From Naegleria gruberi (Eukaryota): a DNA stretch of 4,664 nucleotides. Shown here one piece after another: positions 1-4,664 of the stretch. Under the pieces are notes generated by a model. That model ran no database searches, was not told the DNA's origin, and was given only the letters and a program-made list of their open reading frames with translations. Where the stretch lies: the NCBI GenBank assembly GCA_000004985.1, contig GG739177.1. The stretch is one strand, 5' to 3'. The stretch's first letter is position 1, and every line of letters begins with the position of its first letter. Position numbers and translations under genes: made by a program.

Positions 1-782
1 ACATAGGTATAATTTCTAATGGCCAAAATATATATCGGGAGCCACCATAAACCCATTTCAAGTGATCTTTCATTTGAGGGAACACTTGCTAACTTTCCAA
101 TTGTAAACTGTACAATTACACTGAATAATATACACGATAAATGTGTTATTCTTGAGGTGTTAGCTCTTTCAACAGCACGTCCCCGAGATTCAATGGCCTT
201 AATTATACCAATGGGGTCTCTTCTTGACCATTTCAAACAATCAACAAGCTTCTGCTCTGAATCTACCTGCTGTTTCATTTCAGATATCACTCCCAGATAC
301 TTTTCTGGTTGCCTAATCCCAGTTGTACTCTTTTTACTTAATGTTTTAGATCTGGGTCCAAACACTCTCTTAGTAAACTCCTTCAAAACTGCAAAACCAT
401 TTTTCAGTGGATTTTCCCAAAATTTACCAAATAAATATCCATTCATCAGCTTTGAGGTACTTCTGTCAAGTGGATCCAAAGGATCATAGGTAATTAATTG
501 GGGGAAGATGTTCGGATATGAATTTAATACTCTCTCCATTCGTTTGTTAATGTGGGAGAATTTAATGATGTCAATAGGATTGTTGGTGGAGAAGGTAACA
601 ATACAAAGTAACAATTCATCGGGAAGTTGATCAAGAGGTGCGGTGATAGGTTGTGATGTCATTTTTTTTGTAAACTTTTCAAATTTGTCACCATCACCAT
701 CATCAAATTCATCAAATAATTTTTGGAGACAACCTGTGAGTATTAAGATTGATTTATTTTTTACAAATTGTTCGTATTCCAT
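1..782 (-). CDS. F-box domain protein, 5' part of the gene; ATG at 782-780, reading frame still open at position 1 so the 3' end lies outside the window
   Basis: I reverse-complemented and translated 782..3 by hand: 260 sense codons, no stop. An in-frame TAA sits at 842-840 immediately upstream of the first ATG. The product begins MEYEQFVKNKSILILTGCLQKLFDEFDDGDGDKFEKFTKKMTSQPITAPLDQLPDELLLCIVTFSTNNPIDIIKFSHINKRMERVLNSYP... Residues ~49-88 (nt ~519-638) fit the F-box consensus L-x-x-LP-x-E-[IL]-L-x-x-I-[FL]...[VI]-x-K-R-[WM]-x-x-[LV]. The downstream ~170 aa matches no domain I recognise. The feature is not in the supplied ORF track. Confidence 0.7.
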   Translation of the reverse strand, partial: MEYEQFVKNKSILILTGCLQKLFDEFDDGDGDKFEKFTKKMTSQPITAPLDQLPDELLLCIVTFSTNNPIDIIKFSHINKRMERVLNSYPNIFPQLITYDPLDPLDRSTSKLMNGYLFGKFWENPLKNGFAVLKEFTKRVFGPRSKTLSKKSTTGIRQPEKYLGVISEMKQQVDSEQKLVDCLKWSRRDPIGIIKAIESRGRAVERANTSRITHLSCILFSVIVQFTIGKLASVPSNERSLEMGLWWLPIYILAIRNYTY

Positions 783-1368
783 TTCTATCAATGTTTGGTC
801 ATGAACTGAAAATTTGGCAAATAGACGTGTTGGTAATAGTTATCAAAAAAGTTATCAGCAGAACAAGAGATGTTTTCGGAGGAAAGTCCACCACTGTGGA
901 GAGCCATGATTCTTCAGAATGTTATTGTCCAAAAAGTTTAAAACAATTATCAGATGAAATATTTGAATTTCATGTTTTAAATGTGAAGATAGAGAACCTT
1001 GAATCATGTATTTGTGAGAAAATCAAGAGTGAGAAGGCTTCATCATCTAGAGAATATTCCAAACTACCTGTATAAAAGCTTTTTACAATTTTGTAAACTG
1101 CAGTTTCTTCAAATAAATCATCAAGTATCAGTTGACCACAGAGAAATTGTTGGAGGAGAAGAGAGTTTGAAAGAATTCAGAGTTTACTTTGTAAACATGA
1201 AGATTTTGTTGTAATTTTGTAAAAACAATTTGAAAATCAGAAAATTGTGGATGATCGAAAAGTGTTGAAGTGAAATTTGTAACGTAATAAATTGTAATTT
1301 CATTCCACTTTACATAAAGCCAACCTTAATTACAAACTTTTTCAGGTAAATTAGAAAGAACACTCAAA

Positions 1369-1764
1369 TCAGTAAAGAGTTGCTTCTTGTTGGAACTCCA
1401 AATCTAATAATTTCTTTGAAAAATCCTTCAAATACAGGAAAACCAAATACTGTTCACATGTTGATACAATGGAAAAGTAATTTTGAATGGAGAGCGTGAA
1501 ATTAATCTTACAATAATAATCGACTAAATATTTAATTTCATGTTTCATTGCCATGTCTAACAATCCAGAAATTTTTTCATTGTCGAATGAAATTCCATAA
1601 CAATATTTGATGATAATTTCCAATAATTCCAAATCTTCTGATTCATCTGGTGTGAAAATTCCATTATTAAAATCACTAAAGGATGATCCACTTTCCAATA
1701 GGTGGGTTTGGTACCTGTCATTATCTCTCTGGTTTGGGATCCGCACATGCTCAGATCTTATAAC
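1369..1764 (-). CDS. Terminal exon (or pseudogene fragment) encoding a BTB/POZ-like domain; stop codon at 1369-1371; no in-frame ATG near the 5' end, so the initiator must be in an upstream exon
   Basis: The frame is open from 1764 (in-frame TAA at 1767-1765) to the TGA at 1371-1369. The track's 'M' at 1746 is a GTG codon, not ATG. The translation ...RYQTHLLESGSSFSDFNNGIFTPDESEDLELLEIIIKYCYGISFDNEKISGLLDMAMKHEIKYLVDYYCKINFTL... aligns with the BTB consensus (..AHKxVLAAxSxYFxxMF.....[DE]..FxxLLxFIYTG......NVxxLLxAAxxLQIxxLxxxCxxFL). No upstream coding exon is found in 1768-2177 on the minus strand, which is AT-rich and full of stops. The next exon is therefore beyond or inside the gap, or the locus is a fragment. 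Confidence 0.5.
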   Translation of the reverse strand, partial: VIRSEHVRIPNQRDNDRYQTHLLESGSSFSDFNNGIFTPDESEDLELLEIIIKYCYGISFDNEKISGLLDMAMKHEIKYLVDYYCKINFTLSIQNYFSIVSTCEQYLVFLYLKDFSKKLLDLEFQQEATLY

Positions 1765-2177
1765 TTATCAATGTGATGTATAATAGTCTGATCTACATGT
1801 GGTAAAAACACGAAGGTGTAATATTCTATATTTATTGAGATAATCAATAAAGTTTAGTAATTGTCAGAAAAACTTGCCCTCTCGCCAAGAATTCATTTTG
1901 CCATATTTGGGATCTGGACTTTTATTGTCTGAAAACAGGCTAGACGTGTTCTATATTCAATAATCTATATGAAAAAAAGAAGAACTCTTGAATTGAGTAT
2001 ATAACGACTATTGATATTACTATATATGGTATTTGGATAATAACTTTCACAGAAATCACTCTTGAAATATAAAATGTACTAGAGTGTGTGAGAAACATAA
2101 TGGTTGTAAAACTGATCAATAACTCGTTGAAATGACTGGTATAGAATGTAAACTATAGTGACAAAGTCCTGTAATTG

Positions 2178-2227
2178 NNNNNNNNNNNNNNNNNNNNNNN
2201 NNNNNNNNNNNNNNNNNNNNNNNNNNN
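2178..2227. other. Assembly gap (run of 50 N)
   Basis: Exactly 50 consecutive N characters, the conventional placeholder for an unknown-size scaffold gap. Confidence 0.95.
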
Positions 2228-2833
2228 ATAATCAACTCGTTTTACCTCGATATTTCTGTGTTTTTTGTTCTCTTGGGCTTGCTAGATACGCAACCATTTG
2301 GCAAAAGGTGAAAAATCGCATAGGTTCAACTTAATTCTCTACAAAATGACGTTGGGACATTTGCATTTAATTCAGTAATTGTTGAGTATTTTGTATTTGA
2401 ATTGGTGTTAAACTTGTTAATTTTCTGTTGCTTAATAGCTGTGTTGAACATAATATTTATTAATATTATTTAGAAGGTGGAAGTGGTAATGCTTCTCACT
2501 CCACAAGTTATTTGCTTGTTGGCAGTGCTAATAGCCATGGATTTAAAGCCATTATTTTGATAATCGCATTAATCAACTCCATTTTTAACCCTTTAAAATA
2601 TTACGATTATCAAAATACAACGCCAAATTACTCTGCTTCCAACACTTTTCCGATGTATGAATCTATTTATCAAGATCATCAGGATAATCTTCAATGATAC
2701 TGAATTTAAGTAGATGGTGGAGGTACCATCTCTTGTTCATCAAGTTGAATCTTCCATCATTTGGTGAGGGAGCAACTTCTCCCTTTCATATTGTTTAATA
2801 AATTATTGTTATTATCATATAATGATACAATTC

Positions 2834-2862
2834 TTGTTGTTGTTTGTTGTTAATTGTTGTTC
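2834..2862. repeat. Imperfect (TTG)n / GTT-rich microsatellite
   Basis: cttgttgttgtttgttgttaattgttgtt is visible directly. Confidence 0.6.
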
Positions 2863-3279
2863 TTAATAGAAGCTGACAATTCCCCCTTAATGGTCATACA
2901 ACCACTGGGTTCTTCATATAAAGCATTTCTAGAAATTAAAGCTATAGCACTGTTGGTTCGGTGGTTGTATGTTGGAGCGTCAATTAAGGGACGAGTGATC
3001 GATTCAAGGTGATTTTACTAACTTATTCATTATTACCACCTTATTTTTTTAGATCTTCCTTAATACTTGACAATTTTAAAAGATATTGATACCACATATA
3101 TAATACTACATATAAACAACTCTATGTCAATTTCAATTGATTTAGCCAAGTATTCATTGATATAGAGTATGATCTGTGACATGATGTATTGACAACTTTA
3201 CAAATATTGATTTAAACAATATAGTTATTTAGAAGAGTCTTATTAATTTGTAATAAATATACTATTTTTCAATTTTCAA

Positions 3280-3610
3280 TTGTTGACTTGATGTACTTAA
3301 TTGACTTGTCTATTCTAAGGTACTTAGGTGACTTGAAGATACTGAGCCATCAATTTGAAACTTTCTCAGATTGTACTCCTCATCAAGAGGAGTGTATTCA
3401 TATTTGATACTAGTATGATATTTTGTAAACTGACTGAGATGGAGTGTAATCTCTTTTTTGAAATGTGATATTTTGAAAGATTGTTATTATTATCATATTG
3501 AATTCAATTCTAAAACTATGAAATTGATACCAGATGTAAAATAGTGTGACTAAACGTATTGGGTAAAGTTACAGAATGATTGGAATAACTTTCACTGAGA
3601 TGGAGTGTTC
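3280..3610. repeat. Degenerate local tandem/duplicated motifs (satellite-like intergenic DNA)
   Basis: Exact 15-mer actgagatggagtgt at 3433-3447 and 3594-3608, each preceded by [ag]tgatattttg (3417-3426, 3467-3477 approx.). ga[tg]ggagtgt[at] occurs x3 (3388-3397, 3438-3448, 3599-3609). tacttaattgacttg (3294-3308) matches tacttaggtgacttg (3320-3334). ttgacttg occurs x3. ttttcaattttcaattg is at 3266-3282. Confidence 0.5.
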
Positions 3611-3654
3611 ACTAGGATATATATAATGTTGATATCTGTTGAAGGGATTCACCG

Positions 3655-3673
3655 GCTTTTTTAACGGGATCCC
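3655..3673 (+). repeat. Left arm of a perfect 19-bp inverted repeat, gcttttttaacgggatccc
   Basis: Its exact reverse complement, gggatcccgttaaaaaagc, occurs at 4484-4502. The match does not extend by even 1 bp on either side. It contains a GGGATCCC 8-bp palindrome. Confidence 0.85.
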
Positions 3674-3705
3674 TCATAATTTGACAGGATCCTCCATTTT
3701 ACTTC

Positions 3706-3717
3706 CAAGCGCGCTTG
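3706..3717. repeat. Perfect 12-bp palindrome CAAGCGCGCTTG (GC-rich core in AT-rich DNA); possible dimeric protein-binding site
   Basis: The sequence reads identically on both strands. It lies 33 bp inside the left IR arm, next to two other 8-bp palindromes, GGGATCCC (3666-3673) and AGGATCCT (3687-3694). Confidence 0.4.
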
Positions 3718-4483
3718 AAAACCGTTACATTAAAAATTTAACAAATTCTAATTTACAGGTTAATTTCCACTCTTCAACAAACAACATCAACAAAAAAATA
3801 GGCAACGTGTTACGGGCAATACCACATCTCCTCTAGCAAGGTCCTTTCTCTTCATCATGCCCCACCACACTACCAGATAAGACTTGCAAGCAATACAGGA
3901 AGCTATCTTCCGTTCACATGGTTGTTGCCACTTCTGCTCTCATCACAGTTCTCTTTGAATGACCTGTTATGGTTCTCATGGAGGAGGAAGACATTCCCAT
4001 TGGTGAATATTGTGTTCCTGAACATACAACTACAACCAATATTGTTTTGGTTGTAGAAACAATAATAAAACTTAAATTTTTTAAATATTTGTTGTTGGAC
4101 TTTATTTGCTTATTTGGTACTCAGTCCGAAACAACCTTCCATTTCAGTTCCACTTCAACTGAGTTGAGTTTGAAAAATAGCTCAACTTTAACCCTGCATA
4201 TCTTTGTCCAGACAATAAATATCAACAAACCAATGATTGTGGTTATATTTCAAGATGTTTTGAGTACATATCTCGATATTTGGAGCTTGGCATATACTGG
4301 TTCTGGTTTTATTGGATTTTGAAATTTTCATATATGTTTTCACTCAATTGAGGTTTTCAATCGACCTACTACACATAAACTGCTGAAAACAATTCTGATG
4401 ATAGTTAACATACAGGCGCACACCATACAAGTTAAATTATGATGAATCACTAAGTAACTATTCTGTTGTGGGTCATCAAAGTT

Positions 4484-4502
4484 GGGATCCCGTTAAAAAA
4501 GC
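4484..4502 (-). repeat. Right arm of the 19-bp inverted repeat (partner of 3655-3673)
   Basis: gggatcccgttaaaaaagc is the exact reverse complement of 3655-3673. The arms are ~810 bp apart. Confidence 0.85.
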
Positions 4503-4664
4503 GGAGGGAGTTTGTGTATAGATATTGTGAACTGACTCTGTTGGATACCAAATCTATAAATATAACAAGACGAAAAGTGTCAACATTCAATTTCACATGC
4601 ATCTCACTTTAGAAAGTCATCATTATATCATCTAAATAGGTAGCACTTAAAGTGTCAGTGGAAT

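What the first reader, a model, noticed from the sequence alone, without database searches (positions are those of the whole stretch)
1..1764. Two adjacent, co-oriented genes both encode cullin-RING ligase substrate-adaptor folds (F-box then BTB/POZ)
F-box proteins recruit substrates to SCF/Cul1 ligases via Skp1, and BTB proteins recruit them to Cul3. Two different adaptor classes lie ~590 bp apart on the same strand. That is the arrangement reported in lineage-specific expansions of these families (for example the F-box and MATH-BTB families in nematodes and the F-box families in plants), which are often clustered and rapidly evolving. The family assignment is established knowledge, whereas any shared function or co-regulation is inference. 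I recognise only the motif-level signatures, not specific orthologues.
Basis: partly seen in the sequence, partly recalled or inferred. Interest (0 to 1): 0.5.

Follow-up and report, generated by a model that had tools for sequence, protein, structure and literature searches.

The report
F-box-like gene beside decayed BTB relics
This small Naegleria gruberi scaffold holds the front half of one annotated, probably F-box-type gene, and the "BTB gene" next to it is a broken, start-less leftover of a BTB-domain gene (with a second such leftover beside it), so this is ordinary gene-family decay, not a working pair of ubiquitin-ligase adaptors.

Summary
The window is a 4664-bp orphan scaffold of Naegleria gruberi. 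Both open frames exist on the minus strand as described.

**ORF 1-782** is the 5' part of an annotated gene. It is 100% identical to residues 1-209 of NAEGRDRAFT_73574. F-box support is suggestive only: PF00646 and PF12937 score about 15 bits (E 0.016-0.017), below their cut-offs.

An exhaustive search still links it (E 1.6e-12) to the C-terminal BTB region of two N. gruberi NHL-repeat/BTB paralogues. A family profile hits solved BCL6 and PLZF BTB domains.

It is not an intact gene:
- it has no ATG and follows two in-frame stops;
- about 17 residues at the BTB N-terminus are absent, by a three-sequence alignment;
- the family's roughly 580 upstream residues are missing;
- reading the family C-terminus needs two frameshifts;
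- no gene model covers it.

The "590-bp spacer" holds a second BTB relic (1325-858). It passes Pfam BTB only after frameshift correction.

Verdict: one F-box-like gene with two BTB pseudogene fragments upstream. Interest is low.

The parts
1..662 (-). 5' part of an annotated N. gruberi protein-coding gene (NAEGRDRAFT_76832 partial; same protein as residues 1-220 of NAEGRDRAFT_73574, 432 aa). The open frame also extends upstream to an alternative ATG at 782 and to a stop at 840-842.
   Evidence: 100% identity for P0001 residues 1-209 to 662..36 and for P0002 residues 1-176 to 662..135. One search gives the translation.
516..635 (-). F-box-like motif (residues 10-49 of the annotated protein: LDQLPDELLLCIVTFS...INKRMERVL).
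   Evidence: PF12937 E 0.016, 15.4 bits (cut-off 24.3); PF00646 E 0.017, 15.5 bits (cut-off 20.5). E 0.12 on the 260-aa frame. UniRef name. Sub-threshold, so suggestive only.
78..140 (-). First hydrophobic, transmembrane-like segment of the F-box-like protein (residues 175-195). At least three more lie beyond the window in the full-length twin.
   Evidence: Kyte-Doolittle scan of P0001, 19-residue windows >= 1.6.
34..36 (-). One-base frame discrepancy relative to the full-length twin, in an AT run 35 bases from the scaffold end.
   Evidence: P0001 1-209 to 662..36 in frame -1, then 210-220 to 34..2 in frame -2.
1329..1764 (-). BTB relic A: decayed C-terminal part (BTB domain plus tail) of a member of the N. 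gruberi NHL-repeat/BTB family. The family C-terminus continues in two other frames (about 1441..1394 and 1397..1329), which implies frameshifts near 1441-1447 and 1394-1400.
   Evidence: E 1.6e-12 to P0003 628-721; E 7e-10 to P0005; P0003 BTB 34.5 bits; tblastn E 6e-19; linked HSPs in two frames; family HMM 82 bits; shifted pieces E 0.006 and 0.01; alignment gap of about 17 residues at the BTB N-terminus; profile hits BCL6 BTB E 6e-5.
1765..1770 (-). Two consecutive in-frame stop codons (TGA TAA on the minus strand) that close relic A on its 5' side. No family homology lies upstream of them.
   Evidence: translation; no NHL or middle-region match anywhere in 1770-4664.
858..1325 (-). BTB relic B: a second BTB-like domain split over three reading frames (1325..1131, 1176..973, 1022..858), with frameshifts near 1138-1142 and 1012-1018 and no ATG. 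It fills the supposed spacer between the two ORFs.
   Evidence: frames; hand-joined sequence hits PF00651 at 24.4 bits, E 3.4e-5, cut-off 20.5, profile positions 4-98 of 110; single frames give no hit, a one-shift join gives 21.9 bits, shuffles give no BTB; best PDB match is the CP190 BTB, E 0.13.
2178..2227 (.). Run of 50 N: an assembly gap joining two contigs of the scaffold.

Best explanation
The window is a small orphan scaffold of the Naegleria gruberi draft genome.

Its left end carries the first ~220 codons of one real gene. This is an N-terminal F-box-like motif followed by a linker and the start of a multi-pass hydrophobic region. It is the same protein as NAEGRDRAFT_73574.

Directly upstream, on the same strand, lie two non-functional remnants of BTB-domain genes.
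- Relic A (1764-1329) is the 3' end of a paralogue of the N. gruberi NHL-repeat/BTB family. It has lost everything upstream of the BTB. By a three-sequence alignment it also lacks about 17 residues at the start of the BTB. It has no start codon and needs two frameshifts to read the family C-terminus.
- Relic B (1325-858) is a BTB domain of a different lineage, broken by two frameshifts.

Shown: the homologies, the frame breaks, the missing parts and the absence of gene models.

Inferred:
- The breaks are real mutations, so these are pseudogene fragments left by birth-and-death turnover of a lineage-specific family.
- The F-box-like gene, if it works as its motif suggests, recruits Skp1/Cul1 through residues ~10-49. 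In that case its membrane-embedded C-terminal half would place the ligase at a membrane or select substrates there.
- The F-box gene and the BTB relics have no functional relation. Their adjacency is incidental.
For: - Organism and gene identity.
- ORF1 is perfect over 209 residues against the full-length twin. Sequence quality next to the relics is therefore good.
- ORF2 has no Pfam hit, no PDB hit, and no match among 5.8 billion predicted proteins. No gene model was ever called on it.
- The exhaustive search finds only two true relatives, both N. gruberi. P0003 has six NHL matches plus a C-terminal BTB above threshold.
- tblastn and the family HMM show the family tail continuing in two other frames.
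- The alignment shows a 17-residue gap where the paralogues have 'GTYDFRVKLSEDEFLYC'.
- No NHL or middle-region homology occurs anywhere in the window.
- The family profile hits solved BTB domains.
- Relic B reaches the Pfam BTB threshold only after frameshift correction, and the controls are negative.
- P0005, one of the two paralogues, itself has a 26-residue gap inside its BTB and only one NHL repeat (alignment). This suggests other degenerate or mis-modelled copies exist in the genome.
Against: - All frameshifts rest on one draft Sanger assembly of an orphan scaffold, and reads could not be inspected. ORF1 itself shows a one-base discrepancy near the scaffold end, so sequencing errors exist here.
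- The 131-codon frame is somewhat longer than expected for neutral AT-rich DNA (p about 0.04). This fits either recent decay or residual constraint.
- The relic B join was made by eye with the BTB consensus in mind, and its score (24.4 bits) is only just above the cut-off.
- The shifted pieces of relic A are individually weak (E 0.006 and 0.01 among 318 fragments).
- The 17-residue gap depends on a three-sequence MAFFT alignment.
- The F-box assignment is below the Pfam cut-offs. Shuffled controls show that unrelated hits at E 0.06-0.2 are common.
- The main-scaffold copy of this region could not be retrieved.
Confidence: 0.7

Rival explanations
1. The BTB segments belong to one or two intact genes in the living organism. 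The frameshifts, and perhaps the stops, are sequencing or assembly errors of a low-coverage orphan scaffold, and the missing N-terminal parts lie in the N gap or off the scaffold.
For: - The scaffold is a 4.7-kb leftover with an internal gap.
- ORF1 shows a one-base discrepancy against its twin at base 35.
- The ORF2 frame is longer than most random frames.
Against: - ORF1 is error-free over 627 bases right next to relic B, whereas four shifts fall within about 900 bases.
- No near-identical protein model exists anywhere in the N. gruberi proteome (best hit 43-53% identity). An intact twin on the main scaffold was therefore never predicted.
- About 1.7 kb of NHL and middle-region coding sequence would be needed upstream. 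Nothing of it is detectable in 2.9 kb.
- Part of the BTB N-terminus appears deleted in frame.
Confidence: 0.15
2. One reading: two functional, neighbouring substrate-adaptor genes (F-box for Cul1, BTB for Cul3), part of a clustered and rapidly evolving adaptor array, possibly co-regulated.
For: - Same strand and close spacing.
- F-box-like motif.
- BTB ancestry of ORF2.
- A second BTB-like segment in tandem.
Against: - ORF2 fails the BTB and Skp1 models directly.
- It has no start codon and is truncated and frameshifted.
- Relic B is also frameshifted.
- There is no second F-box and no further family member in the window.
- No evidence of any kind bears on cullin binding or co-expression.
Confidence: 0.07
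3. ORF 1369-1764 is a chance open frame in AT-rich intergenic DNA with no protein ancestry at all.
For: - No Pfam, PDB or word-index hit.
- The frame length is only marginally significant.
- AlphaFold models have low confidence.
Against: - Exhaustive phmmer gives E 1.6e-12 and 7e-10 to two N. gruberi paralogues.
- tblastn gives E 6e-19.
- The family HMM gives 82 bits.
- There are 30 invariant columns in the three-way alignment.
Confidence: 0.02

Closest known systems
N. gruberi NHL-repeat/BTB paralogues NAEGRDRAFT_47424 (762 aa) and NAEGRDRAFT_74363 (392 aa), both uncharacterised 'predicted proteins'
   Same: Relic A aligns with their BTB domain and C-terminal tail at 39-53% identity. The motifs LL(D/S)(M/T)AMK(H/Y)E.KYL, NF..(S/T)..NYF..VS.C..Y and the tail KK.LF.D....LP.K are shared.
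   Different: The window copy has no NHL repeats, no ~200-residue middle region and no start codon. It has a gap at the BTB N-terminus, two frameshifts and upstream stops, and it is not annotated as a gene.
BTB/POZ domain superfamily (Pfam PF00651; solved examples BCL6, PLZF, KEAP1, KBTBD2, CP190)
   Same: The family profile that includes ORF2 hits BCL6 (E 6e-5) and PLZF (E 0.008) BTB domains. Relic B, once frame-corrected, passes the Pfam BTB threshold.
   Different: ORF2 alone does not match the model, and neither relic is an intact reading frame. Many BTB proteins (BCL6 and PLZF, the best matches) are transcription regulators, and ion-channel T1 domains are also BTB folds. BTB ancestry therefore does not by itself imply a Cul3 adaptor (established knowledge).
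BTB-Kelch (KLHL/KBTBD) Cul3 substrate adaptors
   Same: The intact N. gruberi paralogue combines a beta-propeller-type repeat region (NHL) with a BTB domain, the same two kinds of module.
   Different: The order is reversed (propeller N-terminal, BTB C-terminal), and the repeat is NHL, not Kelch. No BACK-domain hit was seen and Cul3 binding is untested. The window holds only the decayed BTB end.
F-box proteins (Pfam PF00646 / PF12937), SCF substrate receptors; specifically NAEGRDRAFT_73574, named 'F-box domain-containing protein' in UniRef
   Same: There is an N-terminal LPDELL...I..F..INKRM..VL motif at residues 10-49. The two F-box models are the only Pfam hits, and the protein is identical to the annotated one.
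   Different: Scores are below both curated cut-offs, and Met replaces the usual Trp. No PDB F-box is matched by sequence. The C-terminal half is a multi-pass hydrophobic region, not a WD40, LRR or Kelch substrate-binding domain. No homologue outside N. gruberi was found.
Lineage-specific, clustered expansions of F-box and MATH-BTB genes in nematodes and plants
   Same: Family members are species-restricted, with degenerate copies lying next to one another. This is the pattern expected of birth-and-death evolution.
   Different: Only two decayed BTB pieces and one F-box-like gene are present. There is no MATH domain, no tandem array of intact paralogues and no measurement of evolutionary rate. 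The two relics are not detectably related to each other.

Membership tests
BTB/POZ domain (PF00651): ORF 1369-1764 | Significant match of the product itself to the BTB profile | tested here: not met
   No Pfam family at E<=10 for the 131-aa product or for the frame-corrected 149-aa version. No PDB sequence hit.
BTB/POZ domain (PF00651): ORF 1369-1764 | Homology to proteins whose BTB domain passes the curated threshold | tested here: met
   E 1.6e-12 to P0003 residues 628-721. P0003 BTB at 586-684 scores 34.5 bits against a cut-off of 20.5, or 39.3 bits for the isolated C-terminus. The three-sequence profile hits BCL6 BTB at E 6e-5 and PLZF at E 0.008.
BTB/POZ domain (PF00651): ORF 1369-1764 | Complete domain core, including the N-terminal strands preceding helix 1 | tested here: not met
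   MAFFT alignment A1 places a 17-residue gap where the paralogues have GTYDFRVKLSEDEFLYC / KTSDLKIQMDENNYLYC. This rests on only three sequences. AlphaFold models show helices only, at pLDDT 41-45, and are unusable.
BTB/POZ domain (PF00651): ORF 1369-1764 | Intact, translatable gene (start codon, uninterrupted frame through the family C-terminus) | tested here: not met
   No ATG before residue 71, and stops at 1765-1770. The family tail is readable only in two other frames. No gene model exists.
BTB/POZ domain (PF00651): segment 1325-858 | Significant match to the BTB profile | tested here: inconclusive
   Hand-joined across two frameshifts: 24.4 bits, E 3.4e-5, profile 4-98 of 110. With one shift: 21.9 bits. 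Single frames and shuffles give nothing. The join was chosen by eye, and the segment is not an open frame.
Cul3 substrate adaptor (functional class) | Cul3-binding surface (phi-x-E loop, 3-box/BACK) and demonstrated Cul3 interaction | not testable with these tools
   No confident structure model and no BACK hit. The best solved matches (BCL6, PLZF) are not classical Cul3 adaptors.
Skp1 (PF01466 / PF03931) | Match to either Skp1 profile | tested here: not met
   No hit at E<=10.
F-box (PF00646 / PF12937): ORF 1-782 | Profile match at or above the curated threshold | tested here: inconclusive
   15.5 bits (cut-off 20.5) and 15.4 bits (cut-off 24.3), E 0.016-0.017, on the N-terminal 81 aa. E 0.12 on the 260-aa frame, and no hit on the full 432-aa twin. 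Shuffled controls give unrelated hits at E 0.06-0.2.
F-box (PF00646 / PF12937): ORF 1-782 | Conserved L-P-x-E-(I/L)-L ... I ... V-(S/C)-(K/R)-x-W pattern near the N-terminus | tested here: met
   Read directly: LDQLPDELLLCIVTFS...FSHINKRMERVL at residues 10-46 of the annotated protein. Met stands in place of Trp.
F-box (PF00646 / PF12937): ORF 1-782 | Binding to Skp1 / three-helix F-box fold | not tested
No PDB sequence match.
N. gruberi NHL-repeat/BTB family | N-terminal NHL repeats and ~200-residue middle region upstream of the BTB | tested here: not met
   tblastn with P0003 and P0005, and a family HMM against all six-frame fragments, find nothing outside 1329-1764.
Tandem array of adaptor paralogues | Further intact F-box or BTB paralogues in the flanks | tested here: not met
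   Only the second decayed BTB segment was found. There are no Pfam hits in the other open frames of 783-4664. Flanks beyond the scaffold are not available.

The most novel reading that the evidence does not exclude
The N. gruberi NHL-repeat/BTB proteins, of which relic A is a dead copy, may be a heterolobosean-specific class of Cul3 substrate adaptors. They would be built in reverse order to animal BTB-Kelch proteins and would be evolving by rapid birth and death. The neighbouring orphan gene may be a membrane-embedded F-box receptor, an architecture with few precedents. Neither point is excluded by the data, and neither is tested.
Probability: 0.12. Interest if true: 0.4.

Novelty: new member of a known kind. 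Interest (0 to 1): 0.14.

Why it matters
It matters little beyond annotation. The result adds two unannotated BTB pseudogene fragments to the N. gruberi genome. It shows that the apparent pairing of an F-box gene with a BTB gene is incidental, so no inference about coupled Cul1/Cul3 adaptor function should be drawn.

There are two modest leads.
- N. gruberi has a small, species-restricted family that joins NHL repeats to a C-terminal BTB domain, and copies of it are decaying.
- The F-box-like gene has a multi-pass hydrophobic C-terminal half, which is unusual for F-box proteins and would be worth a direct Skp1-binding test.

Tried and rejected
- Direct Pfam and PDB sequence searches with ORF2 found nothing. 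The word-index search of 5.8 billion proteins also found nothing.
- A third word-index search, with the C-terminal 391 aa of P0003, returned nothing, not even P0003 itself. It gave no extra family members.
- P0004, the second hit of the exhaustive search (E 8e-11 summed over 9 repeats), is a highly repetitive 1856-aa protein without a BTB. Each repeat matches ORF2 only weakly (tblastn E 0.002-0.13). I treated it as a repeat-summation artefact.
- AlphaFold on ORF2 alone and with the three-sequence alignment gave pLDDT 41.5 and 44.6, so no fold search was run.
- Exact look-ups of P0001 and P0002 in the contig collection failed, so the main-scaffold context could not be read.
- Metagenome and viral contig scans found no relatives.
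- Rfam and tRNA scans of the window were empty.
- Introns cannot explain the frame changes. Homology is continuous across every junction with no spare bases.
- Relics A and B are not a recent tandem duplicate of each other. No pairwise or profile similarity was found.
- Literature searches found nothing specific on Naegleria F-box, BTB or NHL families.
Full report
**Origin of the window.** The sequence is AT-rich (26-38% G+C) and contains a run of 50 N at 2178-2227. A protein search with the frame 782..1 returned two Naegleria gruberi entries. One is NAEGRDRAFT_76832, a partial 176-aa model recorded on a contig of exactly 4664 bp, which is this window. The other is NAEGRDRAFT_73574, 432 aa, on a 286-kb scaffold. 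The window is therefore a small orphan scaffold of the N. gruberi draft genome. It duplicates, or is allelic to, part of a large scaffold. Accessions and names are confirmed.

**Checking the observation.** Both open frames are on the minus strand, at the stated coordinates and 586 bp apart.

The left frame is a true coding sequence. P0001 residues 1-209 map to 662..36 at 100% identity. The annotated start is the ATG at 662. The frame is open further upstream to an ATG at 782 and a stop at 840-842, and I cannot tell which start is used. At base 35 the window differs from the full-length model by one base in an AT run, and the match continues in another frame. This lies 35 bases from the scaffold end and may be a read-end error.

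The right 'gene' is only a stop-to-stop frame of 131 codons.
- Its first ATG is at codon 71.
- Two in-frame stops lie directly upstream, at 1765-1770.
- A frame of this length arises in 3.9% of first-order Markov simulations of the non-ORF1 sequence.

**The F-box claim.**
- On the 260-aa frame, Pfam gives only F-box-like PF12937 at E 0.12 and 12.6 bits, against a cut-off of 24.3.
- On the first 81 residues of the annotated protein, PF12937 (E 0.016, 15.4 bits) and PF00646 (E 0.017, 15.5 bits, cut-off 20.5) are the only hits. Both cover residues 10-49.
- The full 432-aa protein gives no hit.
- Four shuffled control sequences of similar size gave unrelated hits at E 0.06-0.2. The E 0.12 hit alone is therefore worthless, and the E 0.016 pair is only suggestive. 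The two models are related, so they do not count as independent evidence.
- The motif LDQLPDELLLCIVTFS...INKRMERVL fits the F-box pattern, with Met in place of the usual Trp (direct reading).
- UniRef names the twin 'F-box domain-containing protein'.
- No solved F-box protein is matched by sequence.
- No homologue outside N. gruberi was found.

I rate the F-box assignment as probable, about 70%, but unproven. The C-terminal half of the full-length protein has at least four hydrophobic, transmembrane-like segments. Only the first of them (78-140) lies in the window.

**The BTB claim.**
- The ORF2 product has no Pfam hit at E<=10, including BTB and the Skp1 families. It has no PDB sequence hit and no match in the word-indexed search of 5.8 billion proteins. 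No gene model containing this sequence exists in the N. gruberi proteome.
- The exhaustive HMMER search of 1.84 billion representatives did find relatives. P0003 scored E 1.6e-12, with query 29-120 aligned to residues 628-721. P0005 scored E 7e-10 at 53% identity.
- Both are N. gruberi 'predicted proteins', NAEGRDRAFT_47424 and NAEGRDRAFT_74363.
- P0003 has NHL/teneurin-NHL repeats over its first ~370 residues and a BTB domain at 586-684 that passes the Pfam threshold (34.5 bits against 20.5; 39.3 bits for the isolated C-terminus).
- A profile of ORF2 plus the two paralogue C-termini hits solved BCL6 BTB domains (E 6e-5), PLZF (E 0.008) and, more weakly, KBTBD2, KEAP1, BTBD6 and Kaiso.
- The third hit, P0004, is a repetitive protein without a BTB. 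Its score is a sum of nine weak repeats, and I discard it.

ORF2 therefore descends from a BTB domain.

**Why ORF2 is not an intact BTB gene.**
1. There is no start codon, and stops lie immediately upstream.
2. The family's ~580 upstream residues (NHL repeats and a middle region) are absent. tblastn with the full paralogues and a family HMM against every six-frame fragment of the window find nothing outside 1329-1764.
3. In the three-way alignment, ORF2 lacks the 17 residues (GTYDFRVKLSEDEFLYC in P0003) that precede the 'HKTIL' helix. This is the N-terminal strand region of the BTB core. The point rests on three sequences only.
4. The conserved family C-terminus is not read in the ORF2 frame.
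   - The piece FPVFEGFFKEIIRFGV (family: FFESFFKELLKFGI) lies in a second frame at about 1441-1394.
   - The piece NKKQLFTDLSVLSNLPEKVCN-stop (family: NRKKLFYDSETVSRLPPKLCQ) lies in a third frame at 1397-1329.
   - This implies two one-base frameshifts, near 1441-1447 and 1394-1400.
   - Homology is continuous across the junctions, so introns cannot explain them.
5. AlphaFold models are of low confidence (pLDDT 41.5 and 44.6) and add nothing.

**A second relic in the 'spacer'.** While listing stop-to-stop frames I saw that the minus strand between the two ORFs reads as BTB-like text in three successive frames:
- ...LFDHPQFSDFQIVFTKLQQNLHVYKVNSEFFQTLFSSNNFS (1325-1131);
- GQLILDDLFEETAVYKIVKSFYTGSLEYSLDDEAFSLLIFS (1176-973);
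- HKYMIQGSLSSHLKHEIQ... (1022-858).

Joined across two frameshifts, the sequence hits Pfam BTB at 24.4 bits, E 3.4e-5, covering profile positions 4-98 of 110. With only the first shift it scores 21.9 bits. Each single-frame read-through and four shuffles give no BTB hit. The best solved match is the CP190 BTB at E 0.13.

The join was made by eye, so I treat it as probable, not certain. The segment has no ATG. It is not detectably similar to relic A, so the two are not a recent tandem duplicate.

**Real mutations or sequencing errors?** The adjacent ORF1 is identical to its twin over 627 bases, whereas four frame breaks fall within about 900 bases. No near-identical intact protein exists in the proteome. 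Large parts of the ancestral gene are missing. These points favour genuine pseudogene fragments. The reads and the main-scaffold copy could not be examined, so I leave about 15% for assembly error. One of the two paralogues, P0005, itself has a 26-residue gap inside its BTB and only one NHL repeat. This hints that degenerate or mis-modelled copies are common in this family.

**How it most likely works.** Only the F-box-like gene is likely to work.
- By analogy with F-box proteins (established knowledge), residues ~10-49 would bind Skp1 and so link to Cul1-Rbx1.
- The hydrophobic C-terminal half would then anchor the complex in a membrane or select membrane substrates. This step is inference and is untested.
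- The two BTB segments most likely do nothing as proteins. They are debris from turnover of lineage-specific BTB genes.
- Nothing links them functionally to the F-box gene.

**Comparison with known families.**
- Relic A is a dead member of the N. gruberi NHL-repeat/BTB family, and through it a member of the BTB/POZ superfamily.
- The intact paralogue resembles BTB-Kelch Cul3 adaptors in pairing a propeller-type repeat with a BTB. The order is reversed, the repeat is NHL, and Cul3 binding is untested.
- The closest solved BTB domains, BCL6 and PLZF, are transcription regulators. BTB ancestry does not imply a Cul3 adaptor.

**Rest of the window.** There are no tRNA or Rfam matches. The other open frames have no Pfam hits. 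No relatives were found in metagenome or viral contigs.

**Verdict.** BTB ancestry is real and the F-box is plausible. There are not two working adaptor genes, and there is no evidence of a functional cluster. The finding is ordinary: an annotated gene next to pseudogene fragments in a draft-assembly leftover. Interest is 0.14, and the novelty class is a new member of a known kind (unannotated BTB relics).

Noticed in passing
window 858-1325, minus strand: A second BTB-like domain fills the supposed spacer between the two ORFs. It is split over three frames by two frameshifts and has no ATG. It passes the Pfam BTB threshold only after a hand join (24.4 bits), and it is unrelated at sequence level to the 1369-1764 relic.
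   Followed up: yes
window 3655-3673 and 4484-4502: A perfect 19-nt inverted repeat (GCTTTTTTAACGGGATCCC / GGGATCCCGTTAAAAAAGC) brackets 810 bp that include a 119-codon open frame (3963-4319, +) with no Pfam hit. No target-site duplication is visible at the arm ends, so a MITE-like element is possible but unsupported.
   Followed up: partly
window 34-36 (minus strand), near the scaffold end: There is a one-base difference in an AT run relative to the coding sequence of the full-length twin NAEGRDRAFT_73574, which shifts the frame for the last 11 codons. It could be a read-end error or an allelic indel.
   Followed up: partly
P0001 (NAEGRDRAFT_73574) residues 175-371; only 78-140 of the window: The F-box-like protein has at least four hydrophobic transmembrane-like segments in its C-terminal half in place of a WD40, LRR or Kelch domain. 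No homologue outside N. gruberi was found. This architecture is unusual for an F-box protein.
   Followed up: partly
P0003 (NAEGRDRAFT_47424) and P0005 (NAEGRDRAFT_74363), not in the window: N. gruberi has a species-restricted family with N-terminal NHL repeats, a ~200-residue helical middle region and a C-terminal BTB, the reverse order of BTB-Kelch proteins. P0005 has only one NHL repeat and a 26-residue gap inside its BTB, so it may itself be a degenerate or mis-modelled copy.
   Followed up: partly
window 19-489, plus strand: A 156-codon ATG-initiated ORF lies antisense to the F-box-like coding sequence and has no Pfam hit. It is most likely a shadow frame of the real gene.
   Followed up: partly
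window 663-782, minus strand: The reading frame of the F-box-like gene is open for 40 further codons upstream of the annotated start (MEYEQFVKNK...DGDGDKFEKFTKK), beginning with an ATG at 782. The true start codon is undetermined.
   Followed up: no
tool behaviour: The word-index protein search with the C-terminal 391 residues of P0003 returned no hit at E<=0.001, not even P0003 itself, although P0003 is in that collection. A negative result from that tool should therefore be read with care.
   Followed up: no
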